From NCBI GenBank assembly GCA_016844925.1, contig JAERTI010000043.1, forward strand, positions 66,642 to 130,641: a stretch of DNA of 64,000 nucleotides, read 5' to 3'. Source of the stretch: Candidatus Uhrbacteria bacterium. Its GTDB lineage: Bacteria > Patescibacteriota > Patescibacteriia > UBA9934 > GWF2-40-263. Position 1 is the first letter of the stretch. Every line of letters begins with the position of its first letter. The position numbers were made by a program, and so were the translations under genes. The notes under the pieces are model-generated. The model did no database searches. It saw only the letters and a list, made by a program, of their open reading frames with translations, and had not been told where the DNA came from. This document shows, piece by piece, positions 49,600 through 64,000 of the stretch.

Positions 49600-49628
49600 C
49601 CCGACGAGGTGAACGACCTTGTCGGGAT

Positions 49629-50135: not shown

Positions 50136-50203
50136 TGTAGTCTCATCACTTGCTACGCCCCCCCGACCGAGGACCCGTCTGACAGCAGATGGGGAACGTC
50201 CTC

Positions 50204-50244
50204 GTTCGGGCTCCCAATGGAGCGTTCGATAAGATCGAATGTTC
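50204..50244 (+). repeat. attC-like repeat, C-type variant with compensatory R-box change (CCCAAT / ATTGAGG)
   Basis: C to T in R'' matched by G to A in R'. Confidence 0.5.
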
Positions 50245-50320
50245 CATTGAGGGAAACCTCTTGCACGACAGCTGACGGCTTGCCGTCATAACCATAAGCA
50301 GTCCCTCCCTGGAGTAACAC

Positions 50321-50575: not shown

Positions 50576-50663
50576 GTCCCACCGCACACCCGCCCAGGCA
50601 CACACGACCTGGCGGGTACGACCGAGCTCAGCTCGGCACGCCTCAAGTGAGACGCACTTGAGG

Positions 50664-50705
50664 ACCGAACGTAGAGGTTGAGCCTGCTCGACCCTTACGT
50701 TGGGA
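50664..50705 (+). repeat. attC-like repeat, D-type (ACCGAAC gtagag GTTGAG cctg CTCGAC ccttac GTTGGGA)
   Basis: preceded by H1, CCGAGCTcAGCTCGG and cctcaagtg/cacttgagg hairpins. Confidence 0.5.
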
Positions 50706-50733
50706 AACTTGAAACAGCTAAAGGGGAAAACCC

Positions 50734-51279: not shown

Positions 51280-51325
51280 AGTCAGAACAACGGCTCGACC
51301 GAGGAGTACGTCCTTGTGTCGGGCT

Positions 51326-51367
51326 CCTCAACGTAGAGCTCGAGCTGACTCGAGACCTGCGTTGGGG
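51326..51367 (+). repeat. attC-like repeat, A-type
   Basis: CCTCAAC...CTCGAGctgaCTCGAG...GTTGGGG. Confidence 0.6.
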
Positions 51368-51438
51368 AGTGCGATGGATGCCCGTAGGGCAACGCACAAC
51401 CTGTACCCGTCCTGGAGAGTCCGGGAAGGAGAGCCAAC

Positions 51439-51654
51439 ATGGCTTGGAAGATTGTGAGTGTGGTGCTGGGCGTGAGTGCGTTCGTGCTCGGTTGCGTCTG
51501 GTTTGTTCTGCTGTGCATCATGACCTTTGGTGTGCTCACCCCTGAGGGGAGCATCGACCAGGTGCTGGACGGCATCTGCTGGACGCTCGCTTGCGGAGCC
51601 ATTGGCATTCCGCTGGCGACGCTGTCGTTGAAGGCTTGGGAGCGCGGAGCGTAG
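51439..51654 (+). CDS. small membrane protein (71 aa)
   Basis: AAGGAG RBS, two TM helices. Confidence 0.45.
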   Translation: MAWKIVSVVLGVSAFVLGCVWFVLLCIMTFGVLTPEGSIDQVLDGICWTLACGAIGIPLATLSLKAWERGA

Positions 51655-51736
51655 CTCCAACACACAAACTCCTGTCAAAGGAGTACGGCCGATACTTATC
51701 GGCACGGCGGGCATAAGAGACATCACGTCTCGCCCG

Positions 51737-51790
51737 TCGCCACTGACTTGGTTTCGATGCAGTAAGATCGAGATCAGATCAGTGGTGTGA
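51737..51790 (+). repeat. possible highly diverged attC-like repeat (CCACTGA ... TCGAT gcagtaag ATCGA ... TCAGTGG)
   Basis: architecture conserved, R-boxes unrelated. Confidence 0.3.
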
Positions 51791-51919
51791 AAACCACTTC
51801 GCAGGATGTTCGTGGGGATTGGTCGACCACGGACGCGAAATTTCTAATCCGAAAGGTACTCTAAGCAGGCTTGCTCGGCTTGCTGCGACCAAAGAGTTGA
51901 GTTCTACAAGTGAGGACTC

Positions 51920-52651
51920 ATGAGCAAGATGGAAGAGATCCGCCAGACGGTGGCGGACAACATGCATCGCGTGGCCAAGCTCGGCCAGTGGCCCAGCCAC
52001 ATCAACGCCGAGAAGAGCCTGCTGAGCCGCATTCCCGAGCCGGGCAAGGAAGCCCCTGGGTTCGACGCCGGCATCGCCTGCGCGCTGGGCCTGATCCCGC
52101 GCGACAAGCAGCAGCTGGCGGCGCAGCTGCACGCCAACTACACCCCCAAGGCGGTGAAGCTGGTGCGGCGCCAGTCCGTTCAGATGCACGAGGACGCCCC
52201 CACCACCTGGTGGCTCGCCGCGTGCTGGCTCTGCGACGAGGCCGGTGTGAGTCAGCGAGACTTCCTGCGCCAGGTGAGTGCGTTCAAGCGCCTCGCTGCG
52301 GATCCGCAGACCAGGCGCAAGGTCGCCCGGGAGGAGCTGGAGCGCAAGAAGAAGCTCTTCGTCGTTCTGGACGGCATCGCCTACGGCGCTCAGGATGGTG
52401 CTGCGCAGGGAGCGTACATCGCTGGGGTGGACCTCGCGGTGGTGTGGATGGAGAAGTACGGTATCTACTTCGTCAGCACCTACCACGAGAGCCTCGGCCT
52501 GGAGGACTTCGTCTGGTCCGACCGTGTCGACGACCAGGGGCGGCTCATGAGCGGCCCGATCCACGGCTCGCGCCAGTTCGTGAAGACCGGCTCCCAGGAG
52601 GAGCTCGGCAAGATGCTGGAGATCGCCAAGGCCCACCTGGCCATCGGCTAG
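51920..52651 (+). CDS. hypothetical protein, paralog family X (PGFDAGIACAL, TWWLAA, SLGLEDF.WSD)
   Basis: about 45% identical to 53453..54202. Confidence 0.6.
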   Translation: MSKMEEIRQTVADNMHRVAKLGQWPSHINAEKSLLSRIPEPGKEAPGFDAGIACALGLIPRDKQQLAAQLHANYTPKAVKLVRRQSVQMHEDAPTTWWLAACWLCDEAGVSQRDFLRQVSAFKRLAADPQTRRKVAREELERKKKLFVVLDGIAYGAQDGAAQGAYIAGVDLAVVWMEKYGIYFVSTYHESLGLEDFVWSDRVDDQGRLMSGPIHGSRQFVKTGSQEELGKMLEIAKAHLAIG

Positions 52652-52737
52652 ATCTCGTCGAGCTCAGCTCGACAAACGACCCTGTTAGGCACGGACGACC
52701 TGACAGGAGCACTCCCAAGTCATCACGCGACTTGGGG

Positions 52738-52847
52738 ACTCAACGGAGAGGTTGATACGAATATTCCTCGAGCAACGTCGAGAGGCTGTATATGCAGCAC
52801 TTCGACAGGCTCAGTGAATATTCGCGTGATTGACACCTGCGTTGGGG
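52738..52847 (+). repeat. attC-like repeat, long B-type variant (110 bp) with nested 10-bp stem ACGAATATTC/GAATATTCGT
   Basis: ACTCAAC...GTTGAT...TTGAC acctgc GTTGGGG. Confidence 0.5.
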
Positions 52848-52897
52848 AAACTGCTTTTCCCACGGTCCGGTTCACGCCGGAAAAGGCAATAGCTGAA

Positions 52898-53239
52898 ATG
52901 TTTGAGTCCGAGGTCCTTAACGGGCTTGCGGTGGTTCTAGTCTACGTTCTGCCGTTTGGATGCGCGTTCCTTATCGCCTACAAAGGAGAGTGGTTCGAGA
53001 GGGTGCGTGCGTTCAGTTCATGGTTCGAGATGGCGATCGGAGACGAGAGTCTCGATGGTTCTCGAAAGAGGCGTGGTGACAGGTACCTGTACCTGGCCAA
53101 CGCGATACTCATCGGCATCTGCACCGGCATGCTCGTGACAACTGGTACACGTGAGTTCAGTGCCTCCGCAACGATCAATCTGGTGGTGTGTCTACTTTGG
53201 GGGGTCTTCCAGATTTACCTCCTGAGGAAGCGACGGTAA
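52898..53239 (+). CDS. membrane protein (113 aa)
   Basis: three hydrophobic helices. Confidence 0.45.
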   Translation: MFESEVLNGLAVVLVYVLPFGCAFLIAYKGEWFERVRAFSSWFEMAIGDESLDGSRKRRGDRYLYLANAILIGICTGMLVTTGTREFSASATINLVVCLLWGVFQIYLLRKRR

Positions 53240-53329
53240 GCACACGGGCCGACTGACGTCGCTCTCGGTTTGCAAGATGACCGAGGGTAGACGATGCCTG
53301 GCGCGAGGAGAACGTCCTTGTGTCGGGCT

Positions 53330-53400
53330 CCTCAACACAGAGGTTGATGAACCACGTAAAACCCTTCGGGTCACGTGGCAGGTCGACACCTGCGTTGGGG
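53330..53400 (+). repeat. attC-like repeat, B-type
   Basis: followed by palindrome ACCTGCCGGCAGGCAGG. Confidence 0.6.
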
Positions 53401-53452
53401 ACTTACCTGCCGGCAGGCAGGAACCCATCTTTCAACTTCAAGGAGGGGTCAC

Positions 53453-54202
53453 ATGACCTTCGACATCAGGGGTGCCGCAGAGGCACTGGAGACCGTGCGT
53501 GACAACGTGGAGCGCGTGGCAGCGCTGGGTGAGTGGAGCGCGAACGAGCACGCCAAGGGGCGTCTGATCGGGCGCGTCCCGCAGGACAACGATGGTGAGG
53601 ACGAGGTACTGGCTCCCGGCTTCGACGCCGGCATCGCCTGCGCGCTGAGCATGATCCCCGAGGACAAGCAGCGGCTCAGCGCCGTCCTGCACGCGGCGTA
53701 CACGCCCGAGGCCATCGCGCAGCTGCGTGGTGAGCTCGAGAACATGACCCCCGGCACCGAGACCACCTGGTGGCTCGCTGCCAGCTCGCTGTGCGAGGAG
53801 GGGAACATCTCCGTGCTCAGCTTCATGGCCCAGGTGCGCCAGTTCGAGCAGCTGATGCTGGATCCGGCCAAGCGCCTGATGGCCGCCAAGGCCGAGTGGA
53901 ACAAGCTCAAGGGCAGCTTCCAGGACATGAACGGTGTCGCCTACACCACGGTGGATGGTGGCATGCAGGCTGGCTACATCGCTGGTCACAAGCTGGCGGT
54001 GGGATACGCCGAGAACTACGGCATCCACTTCGTGGGCACCTACCTGCCCAGCCTGGGCCTCGAGGACTTCGAGTGGTCCGACGTCTGTGACAAGCAGGGT
54101 CGCTCCACCAGCGGCCTGCTCGGACCGAACTTCGCCAAGGTCGGCGATCTGGTCGAGCTCGGTGAGGTCATCAAGATCGCCCGGGCCCACCTGAAGATCT
54201 AG
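53453..54202 (+). CDS. hypothetical protein, paralog family X
   Basis: AAGGAGG RBS. Confidence 0.6.
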   Translation: MTFDIRGAAEALETVRDNVERVAALGEWSANEHAKGRLIGRVPQDNDGEDEVLAPGFDAGIACALSMIPEDKQRLSAVLHAAYTPEAIAQLRGELENMTPGTETTWWLAASSLCEEGNISVLSFMAQVRQFEQLMLDPAKRLMAAKAEWNKLKGSFQDMNGVAYTTVDGGMQAGYIAGHKLAVGYAENYGIHFVGTYLPSLGLEDFEWSDVCDKQGRSTSGLLGPNFAKVGDLVELGEVIKIARAHLKI

Positions 54203-54209
54203 GAGACAG

Positions 54210-54371
54210 ATGAAAGAATGGATTCAGGGGCTGCTGAAAAAGTACTTCAGCCCCCCACCACCGCGACGTCCAACCGTCTACGTGGTGCACGGACCCGCTT
54301 ACCGCTCGCGCTGGAGCTGCCGGTGCGACGAGACGGAACCCGATTGGCAGGACAGCTGCTACTGCGGGTAA
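54210..54371 (+). CDS. small Cys-rich peptide (53 aa; C.C.ETEPDWQDSCYC)
   Basis: AGGAG RBS 4 nt upstream; not in ORF track (under 60 aa); C-terminus resembles 55849..56067. Confidence 0.4.
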   Translation: MKEWIQGLLKKYFSPPPPRRPTVYVVHGPAYRSRWSCRCDETEPDWQDSCYCG

Positions 54372-54414
54372 GAGTCTGACGGCTCGACCGAGGAGAACGT
54401 CCTCGTGTCGGGCT

Positions 54415-54456
54415 CCTCAACGGAGTTCTCGATTTCGGTCGAGACCTGTGTTGGGG
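54415..54456 (+). repeat. attC-like repeat, A/C hybrid (CCTCAAC ggagtt CTCGAT ttcg GTCGAG acctgt GTTGGGG)
   Basis: mixed L-boxes. Confidence 0.55.
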
Positions 54457-54540
54457 AATATCCTGAGTAGGATTGACCTAAATCGTCGCAGATTGGTGTT
54501 GCCTGCAATGCCGATGCTGCACTTCACAGGAGAAGGACAC

Positions 54541-54930
54541 ATGCTGAGGGAACGGCTCGAACAAGGTCGAGGGATCCCTGCCAAGACCGACCACAACAGG
54601 GTTCGGCAGGTGAAGGATGCGCTGGTTCAGGAGCTCGGTGAGCATCTGGGGCGTGAGTACCGATGGCTGGCGGCCTGCACGGTTGCGGTCGAGGGCGGCC
54701 GGTGGGGTGGCGAGCGCCGCCGCAAGCGACGTCTCAAGCTCGCCGCGATGATCGGCGAATGCTACGCTCACCTGGGTGAGCCCAACCCGTTGGCGGAGCT
54801 GCCCAAGGACTGGGAGATGACTGGGCTGTACTACGGCTACGGTGCCATGCAGCGCTACCAGGAGGATCGCGGTGGCAGCATCGAGGGACTCGTCATGATC
54901 GGGCTGCTGGACAGCGGCAAGCTCGGCTAG
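54541..54930 (+). CDS. hypothetical protein (129 aa)
   Basis: AGGAGAAGGA RBS. Confidence 0.45.
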   Translation: MLRERLEQGRGIPAKTDHNRVRQVKDALVQELGEHLGREYRWLAACTVAVEGGRWGGERRRKRRLKLAAMIGECYAHLGEPNPLAELPKDWEMTGLYYGYGAMQRYQEDRGGSIEGLVMIGLLDSGKLG

Positions 54931-55038
54931 CTCCACCTCTGGAGCACACGACCCCGTCAGGCACGGACGACCTGACGGGCGCCCACGTAAAGACCTTCGG
55001 TCCACGTGGCACGCCCCAAGTCACTACGCGACTTGGGG

Positions 55039-55080
55039 ACTGAACGTAGAGCTCGATTGTGATCGAGACCTGCGTTGGGG
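55039..55080 (+). repeat. attC-like repeat, A-type
   Basis: preceded by perfect H1 hairpin CCCGTCAGG/CCTGACGGG and UUCG hairpin. Confidence 0.6.
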
Positions 55081-55163
55081 ACCTGTCCACCGACAGGGGG
55101 GAAACCCAATCGAAACAACGGGCGTCGGCCCGTAAGTCCAGCAGCGCTGGAAGAAAGGAAGAC

Positions 55164-55481
55164 GTGCTTGTTGATGTAATGATCTACTTGGCATGTTGGT
55201 TGGTCGGAGCGGTGTCTGGTCAGCTGATCAGGTTTCTTCCCAAGAGAGATCGGTTTGGCATGAGGCAGGTGGGTTTGATGGCCTTCATTGGTCTGGGCTG
55301 CATGTTGTCTTTGAACGTGATGTTTCTCGATTTCGATGATGCCGCCAAGGTGGCTTCATGGTCGCGGGATGTCACTGGGACCTACGGAACCTTGTTCGGT
55401 TTTTACTTCGGGTCTCTTCACGTCTTCGAGGCGATGGTGAAGTCGAAGAATTCTTCCTCACAACAGGAAAGAAAGAGTTAA
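55164..55481 (+). CDS. small membrane protein
   Basis: start GTG 55164 or ATG 55179. Confidence 0.4.
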   Translation: MLVDVMIYLACWLVGAVSGQLIRFLPKRDRFGMRQVGLMAFIGLGCMLSLNVMFLDFDDAAKVASWSRDVTGTYGTLFGFYFGSLHVFEAMVKSKNSSSQQERKS

Positions 55482-55483
55482 AG

Positions 55484-55693
55484 ATGAAGAAGAATAAGAT
55501 GAGCGAGTGCCGCCAGTTGATTCTTGGCTTAGCCCTCGAATGGTTCTTGTTCCTTCTGGTTGCCATGGCGATTTTCTTCGCAATAAAGTCCAGTGTTTGC
55601 TCAGGTGCTGTTGCTGCTGAACGGTCGGCGATGGAAGGCTATTCGATCTTGAGAGAGGTTCTTTGCGAGGCTATACAGTCAAGCGACACGTAG
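55484..55693 (+). CDS. small membrane protein (69 aa)
   Basis: immediately follows previous ORF; AT-richer. Confidence 0.4.
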   Translation: MKKNKMSECRQLILGLALEWFLFLLVAMAIFFAIKSSVCSGAVAAERSAMEGYSILREVLCEAIQSSDT

Positions 55694-55800
55694 ACCACAT
55701 ATCCTCACACCTGTTACGTTCTTCTGGGCCGCGTGCGTTTCTATCGTACGAGCAGAAGAGGGCAGGGTGAGACGACCTCAAGCGCACGCAATGCTTGGGG

Positions 55801-55842
55801 ACTGAACGGAGAGCTCGATTTCGATCGAGACCTGCGTTGAGG
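55801..55842 (+). repeat. attC-like repeat, A-type; R' GTTGAGGTG doubles as SD for next ORF
   Basis: ATG 6 nt after GAGGTG. Confidence 0.55.
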
Positions 55843-55848
55843 TGAATC

Positions 55849-56067
55849 ATGGAGAACGAAGAAACCATCGAGACAGAAAGGACGGCCATGGACCGATTCA
55901 TTCAGGGGCTGCGGAGTTTCTTCCGCTGGGACCCCGAGTCTGAAAAGGTGCAAGAGATCGCGTTGGTCCCCACCGGACCCAAGCGGAAGCGTCCGCGTCA
56001 CCCCGAGACCGGCTGCTACTGCGAACCGGACCCTGAGTGGCAGGAGTACTGCCACTGCTGGCACTGA
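55849..56067 (+). CDS. small Cys-rich protein (72 aa; GCYCEPDPEWQEYCHCWH)
   Basis: C-terminal motif shared with 54210..54371. Confidence 0.45.
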   Translation: MENEETIETERTAMDRFIQGLRSFFRWDPESEKVQEIALVPTGPKRKRPRHPETGCYCEPDPEWQEYCHCWH

Positions 56068-56109
56068 GCCCTACGGCTCGACCCGAGGAGAACGTCCTCG
56101 CGTCGGGCT

Positions 56110-56151
56110 CCTCAACGGAGTTCTCGATTTCGATCGAAACCTGCGTTGAGG
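56110..56151 (+). repeat. attC-like repeat, A-type
   Basis: CCTCAAC ggagtt CTCGAT ttcg ATCGAA acctgc GTTGAGG. Confidence 0.6.
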
Positions 56152-56185
56152 TGAATCCATCACCTAAAGAAACAGGAGGCAAGGC

Positions 56186-56728
56186 ATGCAAATCGACAGA
56201 GACAGGCACCTGCTGAAAAACATGAGAACGTGGAGCGCGGCTCTGGTGGAAGCGTTCAAGGGGATCTACAAGGAGCCTCTCAAGAACCAGCCCACCGGCA
56301 AGCCCTGGCCCGAAGGGACCAAGCAGTCGCTGGGTCACAGTGGTGGCCTGTGGAACATTGAGCTGCCCACCGGTGAGAAGCTGCAGATCCACATCTCGGA
56401 CAACGTCTCGCGCGAGCCGCTTCCGGAGATTCCGCTGCGATGGTTCCCGGTCGTGGAGATCGAGACGCGCCAGGTTCTGCTGCTCCCCAGGCTGCAGCTG
56501 CAGCTGTGGCAGGGTCACATGGAACCCGAGGAGCTCGACGAGCTTCTCATTCCGGATCTCGATCTGGTGCGCCTGGGCACGCTGGACATCGCGCCGATGC
56601 TGCCCCTCAAGGCCATCGCGCTCATGCTCCTGGTCAAGATGCCGACGCCGATGGGCTACGGCACTCGGGCAGAGGCGCAGACGTTCCGACAGGCACTGAT
56701 GCGAACCTGCGCGGAGCACACCATCTGA
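56186..56728 (+). CDS. hypothetical protein (180 aa)
   Basis: AGGAGG RBS. Confidence 0.5.
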   Translation: MQIDRDRHLLKNMRTWSAALVEAFKGIYKEPLKNQPTGKPWPEGTKQSLGHSGGLWNIELPTGEKLQIHISDNVSREPLPEIPLRWFPVVEIETRQVLLLPRLQLQLWQGHMEPEELDELLIPDLDLVRLGTLDIAPMLPLKAIALMLLVKMPTPMGYGTRAEAQTFRQALMRTCAEHTI

Positions 56729-56784
56729 GCGTGAGTACATGAGCCCTACGGCTCGACCCGAGGAGAACGTCCTCGCGTCGGGCT

Positions 56785-56830
56785 CCTCAACGGAGAGGTT
56801 GATTCGCGAGAATCGACACCTGCGTTGAGG
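56785..56830 (+). repeat. attC-like repeat, short B-type
   Basis: CCTCAAC ggagag GTTGAT tcgcgaga ATCGAC acctgc GTTGAGG. Confidence 0.55.
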
Positions 56831-56871
56831 TGTTACTGAACATCTTGAATCGTCCCACACAGGAAGCAAGC

Positions 56872-57054
56872 ATGCACCCGAGACATCACGCAGACACCCA
56901 GTTCGAGGATGACATCCACGACAGGGGTGGCGAACCCTTCAACGCCATCGACGCGGCCGCGGCTGCAGAGATGGAGCGTCAGCTCGAGGTAGAAGCTGCC
57001 CACGCCGAAGCGCTCGAAGAAGAGCGCTGGCTGTGGTCCGTCGACTACTGCTAG
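56872..57054 (+). CDS. small acidic protein (60 aa)
   Basis: AGGAAG RBS. Confidence 0.35.
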   Translation: MHPRHHADTQFEDDIHDRGGEPFNAIDAAAAAEMERQLEVEAAHAEALEEERWLWSVDYC

Positions 57055-57125
57055 GCTGAGGCGAGGCACGTCCTCACGTTGGAGGATGGTGTATAGAGAA
57101 GACGACTTAGCCCAAGGAGGTGCTC

Positions 57126-57260
57126 ATGCACCGAGATGAGTCACAACAGAAAGAGCGAGACGGCATCCACATGGCCACCATGTTCGGTCTTCTCGCGGCG
57201 AGCCTCGCTGTCTGGGGACTGGTGTTCTACGGAGCTTGGCTGCTGCTGGCCTGAGTCGGC
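57126..57260 (+). CDS. small membrane peptide (44 aa)
   Basis: AAGGAGG RBS; hydrophobic C-terminus; not in ORF track. Confidence 0.3.
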
Positions 57261-57451
57261 TGACAGCACACGCTGGCGAGCGCAAACGCAACGGCCGTGC
57301 GCGATTCCTGGTTACGATGACCAGTTGAGTCGCGACACGGCAACCCATCTGACTTCTGGATCTGGATTGAGAAGTCAGATGGGGAAACCCAACACCTGAT
57401 TCACGGGCCAGCGGGCCCACTGACCCCGGTCGCCGGGGAGAAAGGGAGACG

Positions 57452-57658
57452 ATGCTTAAAGGCATCATCACGTTCGTGCTCTCATGGTTCGATGTTGATA
57501 CCGATCGCCCGATGATCACATTCTTCGCGATCATTGTCTTGGCGATTGTGGGCGGGTTTAGCGTTGACTCGCTCAAGGGAGAGGTTGAGGAGCTGAAGCT
57601 GGCCGTGTGTCAGTGTCAGTGCGAGCAAGGCAAAGCGCTTTGTGGAAAGGGTGAGTGA
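57452..57658 (+). CDS. small membrane protein with CQCQCEQ tail
   Basis: first of 4 overlapping small membrane ORFs. Confidence 0.4.
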   Translation: MLKGIITFVLSWFDVDTDRPMITFFAIIVLAIVGGFSVDSLKGEVEELKLAVCQCQCEQGKALCGKGE

Positions 57659-57659
57659 T

Positions 57660-57833
57660 ATGTGGAAAACTGATGAGCGGTTTTACACCAAGTGCACCTT
57701 CATGGTTTCCGTATTGCTCCTATGCGCGCCGTTGTTCTTCGGCACGTGGGAACAGATCAAGACACTCTCTACAGAGCGAGATGCTCTAGAGGTCCAGCTC
57801 TACGAGCTTGGCTGTGCGCAGGAGAAGAAATGA
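57660..57833 (+). CDS. small membrane protein
   Basis: start overlaps preceding stop. Confidence 0.35.
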   Translation: MWKTDERFYTKCTFMVSVLLLCAPLFFGTWEQIKTLSTERDALEVQLYELGCAQEKK

Positions 57834-58120
57834 AACTCAAGATTAAGATGCTACTTTCACTGGCGGTCGTCTACGCCATGTACATGACGGTCATTCAGCT
57901 CGCATGGATGCACTTCATCGGATCGCTTTGGCGAGTTGTGGTGATCTTGGTGGCTTTTGTCATCGGTTGCATCTTTCACGGAATCATCTTGAAGGCTAGC
58001 GGCGAGGTAATCGATTCGTCAGATTCGGTCCTTGTTGGACAGCTTGCATCTGTGGCTCACGCGAGTCTGTACGCGCTGGTGATGTTCGGCATTCCGTTGA
58101 CCATCGCGCAGTTGTTCTAA
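57830..58120 (+). CDS. small membrane protein (96 aa)
   Basis: ATGA start/stop overlap. Confidence 0.4.
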   Translation: MKLKIKMLLSLAVVYAMYMTVIQLAWMHFIGSLWRVVVILVAFVIGCIFHGIILKASGEVIDSSDSVLVGQLASVAHASLYALVMFGIPLTIAQLF

Positions 58121-58130
58121 GGAGATTGAG

Positions 58131-58412
58131 ATGAACGAAGTTCTCAAGGTCTGGCTCTACGCACTTGTGAGCGCACTGTTGATCAACGGCGTGGCTCTCG
58201 GGTTCTCTGTTTTCAAGCTGGCTGATCCCATGATGTGGCAAGCAGCAGGCATGCTTGCAAGCGCGGCATCAGTCGCCGCCTTGGTTCCTACCATCAAGCG
58301 CTTCAAATTCTTGATGGACTACGTGTCTAACACGACATACTTCCAGGTGCTCGGTGTGAGCGCCTATCTCTGGATCATCTTCCCCCTGCAGTGGTGGGAG
58401 TGGATTCAGTAA
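58131..58412 (+). CDS. small membrane protein (93 aa)
   Basis: AAGGAG RBS, three TM helices. Confidence 0.45.
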   Translation: MNEVLKVWLYALVSALLINGVALGFSVFKLADPMMWQAAGMLASAASVAALVPTIKRFKFLMDYVSNTTYFQVLGVSAYLWIIFPLQWWEWIQ

Positions 58413-58644
58413 GGCTCTGACGAGCTAAACCCGTAGCAGGTTCGGAATCAGGATCGTGGTTGTAAAGACCAGTTCTGATTCATCTGAGGCGGGAAACGGT
58501 TTACGCGACCCAAGTTGACGCAGACTTGGGGCTACCTACATGTACTTAAACCTTGAGTGCAGCTAGGTGGTCTTGATCTCAGAAGTTTGAGGCGGTAGGG
58601 TCTTAAACTCCTGGGATGAATGAATCATCCTGGTAGGAGGGTGT

Positions 58645-59127
58645 GTGCCAGGACGGATCTACACGCAGAAAGAGGTGCGCGAGAAGCAAGAAAAACTTCT
58701 CGAGCTCTATCAGGAGGCAAAGCGCATTGCCCTGCAGGTGGCAGAGGCCGCCTTCGAGGAAACCGGTGCGAAAGAGACGCTTTTGCGTCAGTATGATGAT
58801 CTGCAGCTTGAGATCGAGTTCTCAGGCGGTGATCAGATCGGCTGGATGGTGTGCACCGGCAGTGGGCACAATCTCATCTTTGCCAAGCTGTTCCAGTTTG
58901 AGTGCTACTTCTCCGAGAAGAGAGAGGGAAGGCCTCACATCTTTGTCCGGTGGAGCGGTGAAGGGTTCATGGTGGTCGTGGACGACTGCCCCGCGGTGCA
59001 CGTGGACTACGGCGTGGACATCCTTTACGGCGAGTACACGATTCGCATCTTCCGCAACACGGAAGAGATCGACGAGTGGTCAAAGACCAAGCAGGCTGAG
59101 CACATCGCTCGCACACGCGTCGAGTAA
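58645..59127 (+). CDS. hypothetical protein (160 aa)
   Basis: GGAGGG RBS followed by GTG. Confidence 0.5.
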   Translation: MPGRIYTQKEVREKQEKLLELYQEAKRIALQVAEAAFEETGAKETLLRQYDDLQLEIEFSGGDQIGWMVCTGSGHNLIFAKLFQFECYFSEKREGRPHIFVRWSGEGFMVVVDDCPAVHVDYGVDILYGEYTIRIFRNTEEIDEWSKTKQAEHIARTRVE

Positions 59128-59221
59128 TTCGACGAGTCTGCCACGCAGACCAACACCGGCAGGGTGAAGCCGGTACGCTATGACAAGCAGAACACCCGGA
59201 CGCTTGTCACTACTGACCCGC

Positions 59222-59262
59222 GCTCGATAAGTTCGAGAGCGGATCGGTGGATGTTCTATCTG
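59222..59262 (+). repeat. G-type hairpin repeat (ACTGACCCGCGCTCGA n4 TCGAGAGCGGATCGGTGG)
   Basis: 16-bp imperfect stem, variable 4-nt loop; four copies. Confidence 0.55.
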
Positions 59263-59352
59263 CACCAAACACCCGTGATCTGCATGCTCGGGGGTAATGA
59301 TGCCCCTTGAGACAAGCAGCACCGGCCCTTCTGCTGAGAGGCAGGAGCGACA

Positions 59353-59949
59353 ATGGGACGTGAGCAGGAAATTGATGAGCGACTGACGCGCCTAGAGATC
59401 GAGACGCACCTGGATACGTTGTACGCTTACAGAGAGAGACTCAGGGTGAAGATGGATGATCTCCAATGGCACTATGAGCGAATTCCATTCATGCAGTCTG
59501 AGGAGCTTTTTAGGAAGCAGGTTCATGCTGCTGGTCTGGAGATTGCGCATGTGCAGCGGCAGCTTGATGCTAGTGATGAGATGATCAGGAGCTTCAAGCG
59601 ACAGGTCGCCAGTCACAGGGCTGCCCAAGGGCTGGTCGTCGTTCAGGATGTTGATGATGGTGGACTGAGTCTGGTACAGGGAACAAAGTTTCCGACTCCA
59701 AGAACGGTATCTCATCACTGGTTCGTGCGATTGCTGCTGGCAGCCAAGATCCTTGAAGTGGATCACGGTGCGGCCGCAGAGCAGGCCTCTCAGGGGCTTG
59801 AGGTGGTCGACTCCGTTGACCGCGGCGGACTGACCGTCTCGTCCGGGGGAGGGCAGCTCGCCCTTACTGATAACAAGACCACGGAGCCACTCCTTCAGGA
59901 ACCTACACGTTCCTGGTGGCGAAGGTTCACGTCATGGCTGACGTCATGA
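59353..59949 (+). CDS. hypothetical protein (198 aa)
   Basis: AGGAG RBS. Confidence 0.5.
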   Translation: MGREQEIDERLTRLEIETHLDTLYAYRERLRVKMDDLQWHYERIPFMQSEELFRKQVHAAGLEIAHVQRQLDASDEMIRSFKRQVASHRAAQGLVVVQDVDDGGLSLVQGTKFPTPRTVSHHWFVRLLLAAKILEVDHGAAAEQASQGLEVVDSVDRGGLTVSSGGGQLALTDNKTTEPLLQEPTRSWWRRFTSWLTS

Positions 59950-59992
59950 CAAGTAAACATTACGACGGGTGGACAATCGTGTTCACCCGGCT

Positions 59993-60031
59993 ACTGACCC
60001 GCGCTCGACAAGTTCGAGAGCGGATCGGTGG
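59993..60031 (+). repeat. G-type hairpin repeat
   Basis: loop caag. Confidence 0.55.
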
Positions 60032-60085
60032 ACGTGAGTTCACTGGAACACTGTCTCGGCAAGGCCGAGAGAAAGGACTGACGCG

Positions 60086-60601
60086 ATGCGTTGGTTGATC
60101 ATGGTGGTTGTCTTGAACCTGTTGCCAGGCACCGTCCTGGCTGGCGAGTTCATGCACAGTCCACCGCACCTGCAAAAGGTGCAGAGGGCCATGCGAGTGG
60201 TCCATGGTGATGGGTACGTGCCGAGGGAAATCAAGCTGGAACGCTTCGAGTGTTACCAGAATGCGTTTCTCTCTTTTGTGGACGTGCTAGACGCACAAGT
60301 GGAGGCGGCAGAGACGGGGCTGGTTCAGCTCAGTTTCACCGTCGATTTTCTGCGTTGTGCTCAAGTGCATGTTCCTGGAGAAGTCGGCATCTTCATGCCC
60401 GCATGGGAGACGGCCGTCAACATCGCTCTACAGCGAGAGGCCAAGCAGGCACTGAGGCGTCTGCGTAGGGATTACACCCAGCAGGATCGCAAGAAGCTCA
60501 TGAGGCTGCTGCGACTCAGGGGCATCACGCTTCTGGAGATCGGTACGCATCCTGAGGAGCTGCGCAAGTTGCGTCGTTCGACCACGAAGATGCAGAAGTA
60601 A
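60086..60601 (+). CDS. secreted protein (171 aa)
   Basis: signal peptide. Confidence 0.5.
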   Translation: MRWLIMVVVLNLLPGTVLAGEFMHSPPHLQKVQRAMRVVHGDGYVPREIKLERFECYQNAFLSFVDVLDAQVEAAETGLVQLSFTVDFLRCAQVHVPGEVGIFMPAWETAVNIALQREAKQALRRLRRDYTQQDRKKLMRLLRLRGITLLEIGTHPEELRKLRRSTTKMQK

Positions 60602-60628
60602 GTCTGCTTTTCTGAAAGGGTGATAGAG

Positions 60629-60955
60629 ATGAATGACGAGTTTGATCAGTTGCCCCTTCCGTTGATTCGCGTGCTCGCGGAACTTCCAGGGGTGGAGCCA
60701 CCCAATGATCCGTGCTGGATCCAGCTTGATGATGAGGATCTTCAATGGTTCCTCCGTGGGTTGCAAGAAAGGCCCAAGCTCCTCAAGGGAGTGCAGGTGG
60801 AATTGAGCGTTGAGGTTACCGATTTGGGTGATCTGACCAGACGGAGCCTCGTTGAGATGCTCTGCGAAAGATCGGACGAGATCCTTGGATTGAAGGTCAG
60901 GGTCTTTTCCACGCACGAGCAGCTGGGAACGCTGCTCTACGGCCTGAGGCAGTAA
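60629..60955 (+). CDS. hypothetical acidic protein
   Basis: second ORF in the same cassette. Confidence 0.45.
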   Translation: MNDEFDQLPLPLIRVLAELPGVEPPNDPCWIQLDDEDLQWFLRGLQERPKLLKGVQVELSVEVTDLGDLTRRSLVEMLCERSDEILGLKVRVFSTHEQLGTLLYGLRQ

Positions 60956-60974
60956 ACGCTCAGGCAATACCCAC

Positions 60975-61132
60975 AAGCGTTCATGTTCCTTGGTTGACCA
61001 GCTCGGTCAGAGGCAAGGAGGAACAGCGATTGTGGGAGACGGTGAGATACCGTCAACGAGCCCAAGTCATACGGACTTGGGACTACTGACCCGCGCTCGA
61101 GAGATCGAGAGCGGATCGGTGGACACAACGTT
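60975..61132 (+). repeat. about 150-nt structured element ending in a G-type hairpin, copy 1
   Basis: about 85% identical to 61845..61998 with compensatory changes. Confidence 0.55.
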
Positions 61133-61174
61133 CATCGGAATCTCATCTCCGCATCGTGGAGAGAAGGGAAAGAG

Positions 61175-61462
61175 GTGCGTAAGTACTTCGTCTACATTTT
61201 TTTGCTTGGAGCGGTCTTCAACATCTGTCTGATCATTGCCTCTCGGACGCTCACGTTCGAGATGCAGGGATTTTGGCTGGTGATGCTTGGTGGGGTTTTG
61301 TTCGGATTTGGTCTGGGTCTCATGTTGGCGCACCACGGTCGTCAGGTTGTCCAGTACGTGCGGATGTTGCCTTCAGAGCGCTCCATCATCTTCCAACTTC
61401 TGGCCTCCATCATGGTGATGTTCTCCATCTTGCCGGTAGTGCTTGTACTGCTGGTGGGTTAG
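61175..61462 (+). CDS. small membrane protein (95 aa)
   Basis: GTG start, three TM helices. Confidence 0.45.
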   Translation: MRKYFVYIFLLGAVFNICLIIASRTLTFEMQGFWLVMLGGVLFGFGLGLMLAHHGRQVVQYVRMLPSERSIIFQLLASIMVMFSILPVVLVLLVG

Positions 61463-61463
61463 G

Positions 61464-61826
61464 GTGCAGTCGCAGGCAGAGCCCCTGGGTTACCTGGGCA
61501 TCATCCGTCGGCTCAAGGGTGGGGCGTGGCGCTTCAAGGTCTACGAGGTCCTCGACAAGGAACAGGTGGAAACGCTCCCCGGCTTCAAGAAGAAGGTGAA
61601 TCCGCCCATACGCTTTTTCGGCGCGGGCGCACACCTGGAGTTCACTACGCGCGGGTGTACGCACATCATCGGGCACATGCAGGAATTCAGACTTGGCAAG
61701 AGTCTGAAGTTCATCTACTACTGCGCCGCGTTGCACGACAAGGATGTGGACCTCGAGTGGTACGCACGCCAGATGTGCAGCAATCTGATCATGAACGGGT
61801 TCGAGCTGACGCCTGAGTCAACGTGA
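61464..61826 (+). CDS. hypothetical protein (120 aa)
   Basis: GTG start overlapping previous stop. Confidence 0.4.
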   Translation: MQSQAEPLGYLGIIRRLKGGAWRFKVYEVLDKEQVETLPGFKKKVNPPIRFFGAGAHLEFTTRGCTHIIGHMQEFRLGKSLKFIYYCAALHDKDVDLEWYARQMCSNLIMNGFELTPEST

Positions 61827-61844
61827 TCAAGAGTGACAGCCCAC

Positions 61845-61998
61845 CTTCGTTTAGGTTCCTTTGTTGACCAGCTCGGTCAGAGGCAAAGAGGAACATCGGA
61901 TGTGGGAGACGGTGCAATACCGTCGACGACCTCAAGTCAAACGGACTTGAGGGCACTGACCCGCGCTCGAGTAGATCGAGAGCGGATCAGTGGTTAGC
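61845..61998 (+). repeat. about 150-nt structured element ending in a G-type hairpin, copy 2
   Basis: paralog of 60975..61132. Confidence 0.55.
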
Positions 61999-62111
61999 CA
62001 CTGTGAACTCCTCGTGCCCTTTGGGTATAGCTGGGAGGAAAGCCCAGTGAGAGGAATCTGTGCAGGCCGTGAGGTCGCATAGAGCGGGCGAGAGTCCGTG
62101 ATGAGTAGAAG

Positions 62112-62534
62112 ATGAGTGAAGTCTGGTGGGAAATCGCCGTAGTGTTGATGCTTGCCTTGTTGGGACTTGGCATGATGGAAATCCTGATCCTGGTCCTCGG
62201 GCGGATGACCATTCTGTGGTATAGGCGTCAGCCGTTCCACCTGGTCTGGCGCAAGGGCTGTGACTACGAGATCATCCCGCTGCGCGTCGGGCAGATCGTG
62301 GAGCTGGATACGGAGCTCTTCGCCGAAGCGCTCGCCGAGGGTTTCGTGCAAGTGACTCGTGGGGACCATGTCCCCATGATCGTTCGGGAGGGCTATGTGC
62401 ACTCCCGGCGTGTGGATGGCTGCAGCTTCAAGCTGTACGTCGGCTCCAAGTCCTACCAGCGCGCTGAATCGTTCGTCCGGCGCCGCAAGGTCGTCAACGG
62501 GCTCCGTGCCACGTTCGGGTACGATCCCAAGTAA
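62112..62534 (+). CDS. hypothetical protein with N-terminal TM (140 aa)
   Basis: ORF within cassette. Confidence 0.45.
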   Translation: MSEVWWEIAVVLMLALLGLGMMEILILVLGRMTILWYRRQPFHLVWRKGCDYEIIPLRVGQIVELDTELFAEALAEGFVQVTRGDHVPMIVREGYVHSRRVDGCSFKLYVGSKSYQRAESFVRRRKVVNGLRATFGYDPK

Positions 62535-62578
62535 GCAGGCGAGCTACGCGCTCACCGTGAGGATGCTCTCCTCCGGTG

Positions 62579-62645
62579 GGCTCCTCAACAGAGAGGTTGA
62601 CCACGTAAAGCCCTTTGGGCCACGTGGCAAGATCGACAGCTCTGT
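62579..62645 (+). repeat. attC-like repeat, B-type variant (internal gcccTTTGgggc hairpin)
   Basis: compensatory variant of the B-type internal hairpin. Confidence 0.55.
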
Positions 62646-62697
62646 TGGGGAACCATCCCTACAAACGTCCCGGCGTATCCGGGTAAAGGACACAGAG

Positions 62698-62859
62698 ATG
62701 GTAGAACAGGCATTTTTCGCAGGCGTGATCGCCGCGGGACTCGCTCTTCTTCTGGGAGCGCTGCTTCAGCGCTGGTTCAAGCACATCAAGAACAACGCGA
62801 CCCTGGAGACGACCAAGCCCTGGGCGGACGATGGAGGTGAAGATGGAGATGAGTCCTGA
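62698..62859 (+). CDS. small membrane protein (53 aa)
   Basis: cccggc..ccggg-TAAAGGA leader. Confidence 0.4.
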   Translation: MVEQAFFAGVIAAGLALLLGALLQRWFKHIKNNATLETTKPWADDGGEDGDES

Positions 62860-63286
62860 GGCAACGATCTACCTCACTGGAGTGGGCGTCGTAGCAGTAC
62901 TGGCTCTCGGCTTGTACGTGTACTTCCTGATCCGTTCCTCGCAGAAGCTGTGGATCCTCCACACCATGCGGGTGAATAAGGGTCCCGTCTACGCGTTCGC
63001 GTCGGCGGTCTCCTGGGGCGTTCCCTACACCTGGGTTCATGCACAAGACCAGCCTTCGTCATCGTCGCTGTTTGTGAAGCAGGTGAGCAAGACAACTCTG
63101 TGTGCTTCACTCTCGGTTGGTGAGGAGTATCACAAGACCGAGATTGGTCTGGAGCTTGATCAGGAGATGTCGTTCAGCTACAAGACTGGGGTCATGATCC
63201 AGGAAATCCACGTGTTTCCGGATGAGCAGGACGTCCTTCGGTTTTGTCGAGATCACGAGATCCACCTGGCTTCGGTCTTCGACTAG
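62849..63286 (+). CDS. membrane-anchored protein, paralog family Y
   Basis: GGAGGTG RBS; paralog of 63471..63914. Confidence 0.5.
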   Translation: MSPEATIYLTGVGVVAVLALGLYVYFLIRSSQKLWILHTMRVNKGPVYAFASAVSWGVPYTWVHAQDQPSSSSLFVKQVSKTTLCASLSVGEEYHKTEIGLELDQEMSFSYKTGVMIQEIHVFPDEQDVLRFCRDHEIHLASVFD

Positions 63287-63384
63287 TGAACCTACGTCCA
63301 TGGCGGCGGCCTAACGAACACGCAACGAGAGCTGTCCTTGTGACTCCTGGTGACGACAACCGGTAGAGACACAGGACGGCTTCC

Positions 63385-63425
63385 TCTCTGGCTTCTCGAG
63401 TTCGCTCGAGGGGCAGGAGAGGGAA
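63385..63425 (+). repeat. diverged A-type attC-like repeat (CCTCTC ... CTCGAGttcgCTCGAG ... GAGAGG)
   Basis: R-boxes changed but still complementary. Confidence 0.4.
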
Positions 63426-63470
63426 TCATCCCTACGAACGTCCCGGCGTATCCGGGTAAAGGATAGAGAG

Positions 63471-63914
63471 GTGAGTTCCGAGTTCATTACCGTCATGGTA
63501 TGGATCACGGTCATTGGCTTCATTTGCGTGGGGCTGACCTGGTACATGCTCAAGCGTTCGTACAGGAAGTTGTGGGTGCTGCACACGGTGCAGTTCACGG
63601 GCAGCAAGCAGATCCACGGCTACCTCAAGCCTGTGGCCTGGCGCGAGCCTTACGTGCAGCTGTTCCATCCGGTGCACCCGCTGCATGGAAACCGTCTGAC
63701 GGTTCGCTGGATCGGTGAGCATTCTGCGTGGGTGCGCTGGGAGACTAGCGACGGCCGCATGGAGTCCAGGATTGGGCTCGGAAGCGGCTTGAAGACCAAC
63801 GTGGCATTCACTGTTGGCACTATCACCACCGAGGTCCGCGTGTTCGCGGGCCCTGATGGGGTAATGATTTTCTGTCGTGACAACGGCGTTGAGCTGATCA
63901 GAGAGCGGGGATAG
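63471..63914 (+). CDS. membrane-anchored protein, paralog family Y
   Basis: same leader as 62665..62697, GTG start. Confidence 0.5.
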   Translation: MSSEFITVMVWITVIGFICVGLTWYMLKRSYRKLWVLHTVQFTGSKQIHGYLKPVAWREPYVQLFHPVHPLHGNRLTVRWIGEHSAWVRWETSDGRMESRIGLGSGLKTNVAFTVGTITTEVRVFAGPDGVMIFCRDNGVELIRERG

Positions 63915-64000
63915 GTATGTCAGTGTTCACGACATTAGCGAGCGTGTCCTAAAGATACGTGACAAGAGATAATACGTAAGTACCGACGTGCCCTCGGCTC

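What the first reader, a model, noticed from the sequence alone, without database searches (positions are those of the whole stretch)
59222..61998. A second hairpin-repeat family (G-type) and a duplicated 150-nt structured element in the distal part of the array
Four copies of ACTGACCCGCGCTCGA-n4-TCGAGAGCGGATCGGTGG occur at 59222, 59993, 61094 and 61960. Each forms a 16-bp stem with two fixed mismatches (candidate extrahelical bases) and a variable tetraloop, replacing the CCTCAAC/GTTGAGG sites.

The GATCGGTGGA end also appears at 44228 and 44613. Two copies are embedded in an about 150-nt element (60975-61132 and 61845-61998, about 85% identical). That element has further hairpins (TGACC..GGTCA, GACGGT..ACCGTC, CCCAAGTC..GACTTGGG) showing compensatory substitutions. 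It may be an sRNA, a compound attC, or a second recombination system within the array.
Basis: seen in the sequence. Interest (0 to 1): 0.55.

Follow-up and report, generated by a model that had tools for sequence, protein, structure and literature searches.

The report
Variant hairpin sites bounding mobile gene cassettes
The "G-type" repeats are a second sequence class of the hairpin-forming junction sites that separate small genes in an integron-like cassette array. Related genomes differ by whole cassettes lying exactly between two such sites, so they are most likely recombination sites and not a small-RNA gene.

Summary
Four near-identical hairpins lie at 59210-59250, 59991-60031, 61083-61122 and 61953-61993. 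Four diverged relatives lie at 44175, 44582, 51740 and 58532. All are on the + strand, all sit inside the cassette array, and none occurs in the 41 kb outside it.

Across 12 sites from three related genomes the 18-position stem is 86.6% paired. Seven pairs change on both sides, and one position is never a standard pair. The build matches the majority CCTCAAC/GTTGAGG sites, but the outer box is CYACYGA/TCRGTGG, with GAT where the others have GTT.

Two related metagenome arrays (L129, L131) show three cassette presence/absence differences, each bounded by two G-type sites.

The 150-nt element is the 3' untranslated module of two cassettes with unrelated ORFs. It consists of three accessory hairpins plus a G-type site. 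It has no promoter-like site and no Rfam match.

No integrase lies in the window or beside either related array, and the sites lack bulged bases. I therefore call them attC-like and do not claim they are proven attC. This is a new variant of a known kind, of moderate interest.

The parts
59210..59250 (+). G-type site G1: CTACTGA-CCCGCG-CTCGA / TAAGT / TCGAG-AGCGGA-TCGGTGG
   Evidence: Covariance model R1 scores 61.4 bits on + and 25.6 on -.
59991..60031 (+). G-type site G2, with arms identical to G1 and loop CAAGT
   Evidence: R1 scores 62.4 bits.
61083..61122 (+). G-type site G3, the last hairpin of element E1
   Evidence: 58.9 bits.
61953..61993 (+). G-type site G4, the last hairpin of element E2. 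Outer box GCACTGA/TCAGTGG: both T.G wobbles have become Watson-Crick pairs.
   Evidence: 58.2 bits.
44582..44622 (+). Diverged G-type site: CTAACGA-CCCGGC-CTCGA...TCGAG-ACTGGA-TCGGTGG
   Evidence: 60.4 bits. L129 has two sites and an extra cassette at this position.
44175..44237 (+). G-type site with the palindrome CTGCCTGCCGGCAGGCAGG inserted in its loop
   Evidence: It was not in the training set and R1 still found it (40.6 bits, E 1.4e-9).
51740..51785 (+). Diverged G-type site: CCACTGA-CTTGGT-TTCGA...TCGAG-ATCAGA-TCAGTGG
   Evidence: 49.7 bits. Its orthologue at L131 15203-15254 has wobble pairs changed to Watson-Crick pairs.
58532..58572 (+). G-like site with outer box CTACCTA/TAGGTGG and a degenerate interior
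   Evidence: 44.3 bits.
60970..61122 (+). Element E1: hairpins H1 (60970-61036), H2 (61038-61054), H3 (61061-61081), then site G3
   Evidence: MFE -79.6 kcal/mol, z -7.0. It starts 15 nt after the stop codon of ORF 60620-60955.
61840..61993 (+). Element E2: hairpins H1 (61840-61906), H2 (61908-61924), H3 (61930-61952), then site G4
   Evidence: z -6.35; 85.7% identity to E1. It starts 14 nt after the stop codon of ORF 61443-61826, which is unrelated to the ORF before E1.
59251..59990 (+). Cassette between G1 and G2, carrying the 198-aa ORFan 59353-59949. It is absent from the related genome L131.
   Evidence: L131 has a single site at 19758-19798. (no homologue among 5.8 billion clusters other than itself).
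44238..44581 (+). Cassette between the two proximal G-type sites, carrying the 62-aa membrane ORF 44339-44527. It is absent from L131 and present in L129.
57343..57384 (+). Site with outer box ACCCATC/GATGGGG (called F-type here): GAT occupies the position of GTT and is fully paired
   Evidence: It bounds a segment (57383-58566) that is absent from L131.
42741..64000 (+). Cassette array: about 40 small co-oriented ORFs separated by hairpin junction sites. It runs off the end of the window.
   Evidence: No Pfam family for any array ORF.

Best explanation
The G-type hairpins are a sequence subclass of the junction sites that delimit gene cassettes in a chromosomal, integron-like array.

**Anatomy (shown).** Each site lies after the stop codon of a + strand ORF and ahead of the leader of the next ORF. 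It has the same build as the majority sites:
- a 7-bp outer box,
- a 6-nt partly paired spacer,
- a 5-6-bp CTCGA(G) inner box,
- a short or expandable loop.

The outer box is CYACYGA/TCRGTGG in place of CCTCAAC/GTTGRGG. The site therefore lacks the AAC/GTT triplet and has GAT next to a conserved C.A position.

**Behaviour (shown).** Cassettes flanked by two G-type sites are present or absent between related genomes.

**Mechanism (inferred).** A recombinase encoded elsewhere in the genome, most plausibly an integron-type tyrosine recombinase, acts on the folded single strand. It exchanges strands in or next to the 3' outer box, excising or inserting the unit between two sites.

**The 150-nt element.** It is not a separate gene. 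It is the 3' untranslated end of two cassettes with unrelated ORFs: three accessory hairpins (one of a type shared with the majority sites) followed by a G-type site. The run of five G-type boundaries at 58.5-62 kb is probably a block of cassettes of common origin.
For: **The sites are real and directional.**
- Four exact-arm copies against 0 expected.
- Model R1 finds 8 sites in the window, all on + and all inside 44-62 kb. One was not in the training set (E 1.4e-9). Minus-strand scores are 17-30 bits against 44-62 bits on +. The best hit outside any array is 15.4 bits, E 0.038.

**The pairing is maintained.** On 12 sites from three genomes, 86.6% of cells pair, against 24-41% when the 3' partner is slid. 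Seven pairs change on both sides. No shuffle out of 500 reaches the observed value on four of the five measures (10 of 500 do for further pair types). Stem position 8 is never a standard pair.

**Same architecture as the majority sites.** See, and the weak cross-hits of R1 to A-type sites.

**Three cassette differences are bounded by G-type sites.**
1. L129 has an extra 410-nt cassette where the window has the single site 44582.
2. The window cassette between 44175 and 44582 is absent in L131. There the whole upstream hairpin is kept up to GATCGGT and is joined to the sequence that follows the downstream site.
3. The window cassette 59251-59990 is absent in L131.

**Cassettes move.** One cassette (49341-49668) sits out of order in L129.

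**The element is independent of the ORFs.** The ORFs before E1 and E2 are unrelated.

**GAT is within reported integrase tolerance.** IntI1/2/3 insertion sites in the genome have the consensus 5'-GWT-3' (10.1101/2022.09.11.507474). In IntI1 assays only the first base of GTT had to match between partner sites (PMC2811028).
Against: - **No recombinase found.** There is no integrase or other recombinase domain in the window, in the 8 kb to the left of the array in L131, or at the right end of the array in L129. In L129 the array abuts an ORF that reads as an smc-like ATPase, by eye from the translation only.
- **No bulged bases.** The two arms are equal in length, so there are no extrahelical bases, a hallmark of attC.
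- **Very short sites.** At about 41 nt they sit at the 40-nt lower bound I recall for IntegronFinder. That figure is from memory and was not checked here.
- **No single crossover point.** The crossover maps to the 3' outer box in case 2 but to the apex of the hairpin in case 1.
- **Wobbles favour the + strand.** Apart from stem position 8, G.T wobbles outnumber A.C pairs 19 to 1 in G-type sites. In the other site types the count is 124 to 49. Integron recombination uses the bottom strand.
- **Few relatives.** Only two related arrays could be found, so the events are few.
Confidence: 0.6

Rival explanations
1. The hairpins work in the mRNA, as 3'-end stabilisers, processing sites or translational insulators between cassettes of a polycistronic transcript. 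The cassette differences between genomes would then come from replication slippage or homologous recombination between the 40-nt direct repeats, with no dedicated recombinase.
For: - G.T wobbles favour the sense strand: 19 to 1 outside position 8 in G-type sites, and 124 to 49 in the other types.
- The top strand is the more stable strand in 8 of 10 G-type sites.
- The crossover positions differ between events and always fall inside sequence shared by the two parental sites.
- No recombinase lies nearby.
- Integrase-independent loss of short cassettes (60 to about 400 bp) by slippage has been reported (PMC5371416).
Against: - Slippage deletes but does not insert or move cassettes. L129 has a cassette out of order, and each genome carries cassettes the others lack.
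- The hairpins have no T-run and are not terminators.
- Position 8 is conserved as C.A on the sense strand, which is a G.T wobble on the other strand.
- The repeats are confined to the array and always sit at ORF boundaries.
Confidence: 0.2
2. The G-type sites form a separate exchange group. Because they lack the AAC/GTT triplet, they recombine only with each other, through a different recombinase or through lack of microhomology with GTT sites. The array would then be partitioned into independently shuffling compartments.
For: - All three mapped events at G-type sites join a G-type site to a G-type site.
- G-type sites occur in runs: 44175 and 44582, and 58532 to 61953.
- If the sites are aligned by distance from the inner box, the triplet at the cleavage position is TCG/TCA, whose first base differs from the G of GTT. 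IntI1 needs that first base to match between partners (PMC2811028).
Against: - Three events are too few to show exclusivity.
- In the alternative register the triplet is GAT. It shares the first G with GTT and fits the GWT consensus.
- Cassettes with a G-type site on one side and an A-type site on the other exist (44623-45174 and 61994-62650).
- No second recombinase is seen.
Confidence: 0.13
3. The G-type sites are decayed, inactive remnants of ordinary junction sites that have lost the cleavage triplet, freezing neighbouring cassettes into fixed blocks.
For: The sites lack AAC/GTT. The copy at 58532 has a degenerate interior, and the L131 copy at 10426-10495 has lost two bases of the outer box.
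Against: - Three copies have identical arms next to unrelated ORFs.
- Pairing is maintained by changes on both sides across three genomes.
- Three recent cassette differences lie exactly at these sites, in genomes 77-96% identical to the window.
Confidence: 0.04
4. The hairpins are REP-like elements, or miniature IS200/IS605-type elements, spread by a Y1 (HUH) transposase.
For: An IS200-type Y1 transposase gene lies 6 kb from the array in L131. Other short hairpin elements have inserted into site loops after TTGAT.
Against: - The transposase gene is absent from the window.
- G-type sites are absent from 41 kb of flanking chromosome.
- They are always co-oriented and always at ORF boundaries.
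- The GTAG-like tetranucleotide is not conserved.
Confidence: 0.03

Closest known systems
attC sites of sedentary chromosomal integrons (for example the Vibrio cholerae repeats)
   Same: - Imperfect inverted repeats at the 3' end of promoterless, mostly ORFan cassettes in a long co-oriented array.
- Outer (R) and inner (L) boxes around a variable terminal loop that can hold extra hairpins.
- The same site family attached to unrelated ORFs.
- Cassette content varies between close relatives.
- If the positive GC skew marks the + strand as the leading strand (an inference), the bottom strands lie on the leading-strand template, as in 25 of 30 chromosomal integrons (PMC5371416).
   Different: - No AAC/GTT triplet: the 5' arm has GACC and the 3' arm has GATC.
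- The arms are equal in length, so there are no extrahelical bases.
- Only about 41 nt long, and the spacer is largely paired.
- Wobble pairs favour the top strand.
- No adjacent intI or recognisable attI.
- Several outer-box classes coexist in one array.
CALIN (clusters of attC sites lacking an integron integrase; Cury et al. 2016, PMC4889954)
   Same: At least two, and here dozens of, junction sites with no integrase nearby. The cassettes have unknown functions.
   Different: CALIN are defined by hits to the attC covariance model of IntegronFinder, which could not be run here. Most CALIN have fewer than six sites.
Relaxed cleavage-site use by integron integrases (GWT attG sites, and mutated GTT triplets)
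   Same: The GAT of the G-type and F-type sites fits the 5'-GWT-3' consensus of IntI1/2/3 insertion sites. It keeps the first G, which IntI1 needs to be identical between partner sites.
   Different: Those results come from double-stranded genomic targets or engineered sites in E. coli. They do not describe a natural family of folded cassette sites carrying GAT.
REP elements and their Y1 transposases
   Same: Short imperfect palindromes in intergenic DNA.
   Different: REPs are dispersed genome-wide and occur in both orientations. These sites are confined to one array, are co-oriented, and bound mobile ORF units.

Membership tests
integron attC site | Imperfect inverted repeat with outer (R''/R') and inner (L''/L') boxes that folds into a hairpin | tested here: met
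   The 18-position stem is 86.6% paired over 12 sites, and 7 pairs change on both sides.
integron attC site | Conserved 5'-RYYYAAC / GTTRRRY-3' with the AAC/GTT cleavage triplet | tested here: not met
   G-type sites have CYACYGA-C and GA-TCRGTGG. The majority A-type sites do have CCTCAAC/GTTGRGG. GAT lies within the reported GWT tolerance.
integron attC site | Extrahelical (bulged) bases and an unpaired central spacer that make the two strands different | tested here: not met
   The arms are of equal length, 18 and 18 nt, with only symmetric mismatches: C.A at position 8 and G.A at position 13. Four of the six spacer positions are paired.
integron attC site | Sits at the 3' end of each cassette in a co-oriented array, and cassettes vary between relatives at these sites | tested here: met
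integron attC site | Recombined by an integron integrase as a folded bottom strand, with the crossover between G and TT of R' | not testable with these tools
   One junction maps the crossover inside GATCGGT(GG) and another maps it to the apex. The strand used is unknown, and the wobble bias favours the top strand.
complete integron | An intI gene and an attI site next to the array | tested here: not met
   No Phage_integrase or any other recombinase family in the ORFs scanned across the window, in L121, in L131 or in L129. The rest of the genome was not available.
CALIN | At least two attC sites (IntegronFinder model) with no intI nearby | tested here: inconclusive
   The absence of intI is shown. 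The IntegronFinder attC model was not available, so the sites were not scored against it.
Rfam RNA families (sRNA or cis-regulatory) | Match to a curated covariance model | tested here: not met
   At gathering score the whole window matches only a 16S rRNA, two tRNAs and a SAM riboswitch, none of them in the array. No match with E up to 1 in 58-64 kb.
intrinsic terminator | G+C-rich hairpin followed by a T-run | tested here: not met
   The sites are followed by GGTGGA(T/C)G..., and no terminator-like hit lies at any G-type site.
REP / RAYT elements | Genome-wide dispersal in intergenic regions, with an associated Y1 transposase | tested here: not met
   No hits in the 41 kb of non-array window or in the flanks of L131 and L129. 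No Y1 transposase in the window. The one in L131 is an ordinary IS200-type gene.

The most novel reading that the evidence does not exclude
The array is not run by a classical integron integrase. It would instead use a trans-acting recombinase that recognises minimal, symmetric 41-42-nt hairpins folded from the sense strand. Interchangeable outer boxes (GTT class, GAT class and others) would act as address labels that split one array into separately shuffling compartments.
Probability: 0.15. Interest if true: 0.8.

Novelty: new variant of a known kind. Interest (0 to 1): 0.5.

Why it matters
Integron cassette sites are thought to share one universal cleavage triplet, so that any cassette can recombine with any other. 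A natural array in which a conserved, evidently active class of sites carries a different triplet, and lacks bulged bases, would have two consequences.

- It would extend the known sequence and structure range of cassette recombination sites.
- It would give a natural test of whether the triplet sets exchange compatibility. So far that idea has only been examined with engineered sites.

It also adds a large cassette array with no adjacent integrase, from a poorly sampled lineage that also turns up in metagenome assemblies. Its cassettes are almost all ORFans.

Tried and rejected
- **Genome collection, G-type pattern.** The scan of species-representative genomes gave 0 hits.
- **Viral contigs.** 0 hits.
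- **Metagenome scan.** 9 hits, of which only L129 is real.
- **Protein searches.** The 198-aa and 62-aa cassette proteins found only themselves.
- **Extending the window to the right.** Two start variants of the last ORF are not on record, and neither is the ORF 62831-63286.
- **Alternative arrangements in the same samples.** None found.
- **Literature search for the run accession.** 0 papers.
- **Cluster look-up.** It gave no names, so the organism stays unidentified.
- **Generic hairpin scan (7-6-6 geometry, wobbles and long loops allowed).** It was too permissive: 480 hits, more of them outside the array than inside. I discarded it.
- **Ideas rejected.**
  - Xer/dif-like double-stranded core sites: the central loops differ between partner sites.
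  - REP/RAYT elements: the sites are not dispersed.
  - Terminators: there is no T-run.
  - A hidden integrase among the long antisense ORFs of the array: no Pfam hit.
Full report
**Observation.** The pattern ACTGACCCGCGCTCGA-N(3-7)-TCGAGAGCGGATC occurs four times, at 59212, 59993, 61085 and 61955, all on the + strand. None was expected in shuffles.

The literal version with a 4-nt loop matches only once.

With two flanking bases the stem has 18 positions: 14 Watson-Crick pairs, two T.G wobbles, and two fixed mismatches, C.A and G.A.

GATCGGTGGA occurs at 44229 and 44614 as stated. Both are the 3' ends of diverged hairpins of the same family.

**Extent of the family.** I aligned 12 sites: seven from the window, three from L129 and two from L131.
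- The named stem is 86.6% paired, against 24-41% when the 3' partner is slid by 1-3 columns.
- Seven pairs change on both sides.
- No shuffle out of 500 reaches the observed value on four of the five measures (10 of 500 do for further pair types).
- Stem position 8 is never a standard pair. It reads C.A in 9 of the 10 sites tabulated.

A covariance model built from this alignment finds eight sites in the window: 44176, 44580, 51738, 58530, 59208, 59989, 61081 and 61951.
- One of them was not in the training set (40.6 bits, E 1.4e-9).
- All are on the + strand. The same loci score 17-30 bits on the - strand, against 44-62 bits on +.
- All lie inside the array. The best hit in the 41 kb outside it is 15.4 bits, E 0.038.

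The full G-type pattern is absent from 596 Gb of species-representative genomes and from viral contigs. So the stated refutation, G-type repeats scattered over the chromosome, is not met as far as it can be tested.

**Context.** From about 42.7 kb to the end of the window there are some 40 small + strand ORFs. None has a Pfam family.

They are separated by structured repeats. Most are CCTCAAC-GTAGAG-CTCGAG-loop-CTCGAG-ACCTGC-GTTGRGG or close variants. That is a 7-bp outer box, a 6-nt partly paired spacer, a 6-bp inner box, and a loop that is either 3-8 nt or holds an inserted hairpin.

The G-type sites have the same build: CYACYGA-CCCGCG-CTCGA-loop-TCGAG-AGCGGA-TCRGTGG. The G-type model gives weak cross-hits to A-type sites.

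Other outer boxes also occur:
- CAGAAAT/GTTCTTG at 43190 and 43675;
- ACCCATC/GATGGGG at 57343;
- TCCTCTC/GAGAGGG at 63382;
- TCCCAAT/ATTGAGG at 50212.

The window is chromosomal. It carries a 16S rRNA gene, two tRNAs, a SAM riboswitch and housekeeping genes.

The array starts next to rpsP. No integrase or other recombinase domain was found in the ORFs scanned across the window, including weak-threshold scans of the unassigned neighbours.

**Related arrays.** A metagenome scan with the 3' half of the G-type site gave one real relative, L129, 77-88% identical to parts of the window.
- Read in reverse complement, it has three G-type sites followed by five A/B-type sites.
- The array then ends at a terminator-like hairpin and a low-G+C ORF on the - strand. 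I read that ORF as an smc-like ATPase from its translation only and did not run it against any library. No integrase-sized ORF is apparent at that end.

A profile of a paralogous cassette family led to a third genome, L131 and five sister contigs.
- It is 90-96% identical to the window, with the same radical-SAM/rpsP/array synteny.
- It is colinear with the window but differs by many whole cassettes.

**Events at G-type sites.** There are three.
1. L129 has two sites and a 410-nt cassette where the window has the single site 44582-44622.
2. The window cassette between the sites at 44175 and 44582 (62-aa ORF) is missing in L131. L131 keeps the entire upstream hairpin as far as GATCGGT, then continues with the sequence that follows the downstream site. 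This places the crossover inside the 3' outer box.
3. The window cassette 59251-59990 is missing in L131, which has one site at 19758-19798. This cassette carries the 198-aa ORF that has no homologue other than itself.

These rest.

In event 1 the window site combines the 5' arm of one L129 site with the loop and 3' arm of the other. The crossover there maps to the apex. There is therefore no single crossover point, and every crossover lies in sequence shared by the two parental sites.

One cassette (window 49341-49668) sits at a different place in the L129 array. Its homology to the window copy ends right after CCTCAAC. Cassettes therefore move and are not only lost.

**The triplet.** Integron recombination takes place in the AAC/GTT triplet. 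It is the only conserved stretch of attC sites and is thought to be kept for microhomology between partners (PMC5027507).

In IntI1 assays only the first base of GTT had to be the same in both partners (PMC2811028). IntI1, IntI2 and IntI3 insert cassettes into genomic sites with the consensus 5'-GWT-3' (10.1101/2022.09.11.507474).

Read along the helix, the G-type 3' arm is G-A-T-C-G-G-T opposite A-C-T-G-A-C-C. This is a GTTRRRY-like box whose middle A-T pair is replaced by C.A on the + strand, which is T.G on the - strand. The site at 57343 has ATC/GAT fully paired.

On this reading (an inference) the G-type sites are a GAT class within known integrase tolerance. They lie two bases closer to the inner box than GTT does in the majority sites.

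If the sites are instead aligned by distance from the inner box, the triplet is TCG/TCA. Its first base differs from G, which would make them a separate exchange class. The data do not decide between the two registers.

**Strand.** Apart from position 8, G.T wobbles outnumber A.C pairs on the + strand by 19 to 1 in G-type sites. The count is 124 to 49 in the other site types, although that list includes some false sites. The + strand fold is the more stable in 8 of 10 G-type sites.

This favours selection on the sense strand, as RNA or as top-strand DNA. It is the main point against a classical bottom-strand attC.

GC skew is positive on the + strand across the window. If that marks the leading strand (an inference), the bottom strands lie on the leading-strand template, as in 25 of 30 chromosomal integrons (PMC5371416).

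**The 150-nt element.** E1 (60970-61122) and E2 (61840-61993) are 85.7% identical. Each folds into four hairpins, with z = -7.0 and -6.35:
- a 67-nt composite hairpin;
- GACGGTG/TACCGTC;
- CCCAAGTC/GACTTGGG;
- the G-type site.

They begin 14-15 nt after the stop codons of ORFs that are unrelated to each other.

Of 55 pairs, 45 are unchanged. Two change on both sides and stay paired (60976/61030 and 61062/61080), two change on one side and stay paired, and six are broken, all in the first hairpin. Differences fall in 12 of 110 paired columns and 10 of 44 unpaired columns.

The first two hairpins occur nowhere else in the window, L129 or L131. The third belongs to a type that also precedes many majority sites.

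There is no + strand promoter-like site in 58-64 kb and no Rfam match with E up to 1. I read the element as a modular cassette 3' end and not as an sRNA gene.

**Verdict.** The best-supported reading is a variant class of attC-like cassette junction sites that take part in cassette gain and loss (confidence 0.6).

Membership in the attC family is not claimed. The triplet and the extrahelical bases were tested and not met, and no integrase was found near the array.

The main rival is an RNA-level role, with cassette loss by slippage between the direct repeats. Integrase-independent loss of short cassettes is documented.

This is a new variant of a known kind, with interest 0.5.

Noticed in passing
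window 52755-52830; L131 about 11847, 12518, 14078, 18506 (a longer one near 16230): A ~72-nt element with AATATTC...GAATATT ends sits inside the loop of junction sites, always right after (G/C)TTGAT. The orthologous site after ORF 47446-47952 holds a 33-nt hairpin in the window but this element in L131. The site loops therefore look like insertion hot spots. From my own knowledge, TTGAT is the target of ISDra2 of the IS200/IS605 family.
   Followed up: partly
L131 1585-2013: An IS200-type Y1 (HUH) transposase gene with low G+C lies in a variable island about 6 kb left of rpsP. It is absent from the window, where 27369-33757 takes the place of that island.
   Followed up: partly
window 44252-44305, 47437-47490, 48075-48125, variant at 62005-62060; L131 near 11950 and 12630; L129 (reverse complement) near 1070: A conserved two-hairpin 5' leader, CCTCGTGCCC..GGGATGTAGCC-loop-GGTGAGAG, follows junction sites of either type, ahead of unrelated ORFs. 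It has no Rfam match.
   Followed up: no
window 41230-41440 (L131 8413-8610): An AT-rich, 90% conserved stretch lies between rpsP and the array. It has a TTGACA-17-TATTGT promoter-like site followed by about 150 nt ending in GGCCTTTTTTGTT. It may be a small RNA or the promoter region of the array.
   Followed up: no
window 42741-42750: The first array junction reads GGATTCCTGG. Here the window has two extra paralogous cassettes (42751-43706) that L131 lacks. This is the position where an attI-like primary insertion site would be expected.
   Followed up: partly
window 45105-45130, 43160-43190, 44148-44175 and many others: The hairpin just upstream of most junction sites has a recurring loop motif, (A/T)ACG(T/A)C, for example CGACCGAGGAGAACGTCCTCGTGTCG. 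The stems vary in a compensating way.
   Followed up: no
window 63382-63423, 57343-57384, 50212-50252, 43190-43230, 43675-43715: Further outer-box classes share the same 7-6-6 geometry: TCCTCTC/GAGAGGG, ACCCATC/GATGGGG, TCCCAAT/ATTGAGG and CAGAAAT/GTTCTTG.
   Followed up: partly
window 1-26000 against 27000-64000: G+C jumps from about 48% to about 60% at 26-27 kb. In L129 the array (about 57% G+C) abuts a gene of about 42% G+C. The array and its left neighbours are much richer in G+C than the rest of the host DNA.
   Followed up: no
window 22031-23527 (-) and 40417-40953 (-): The 16S rRNA gene has no 23S gene next to it. The rpsP gene encodes a long Ala/Glu-rich repeat tail.
   Followed up: no
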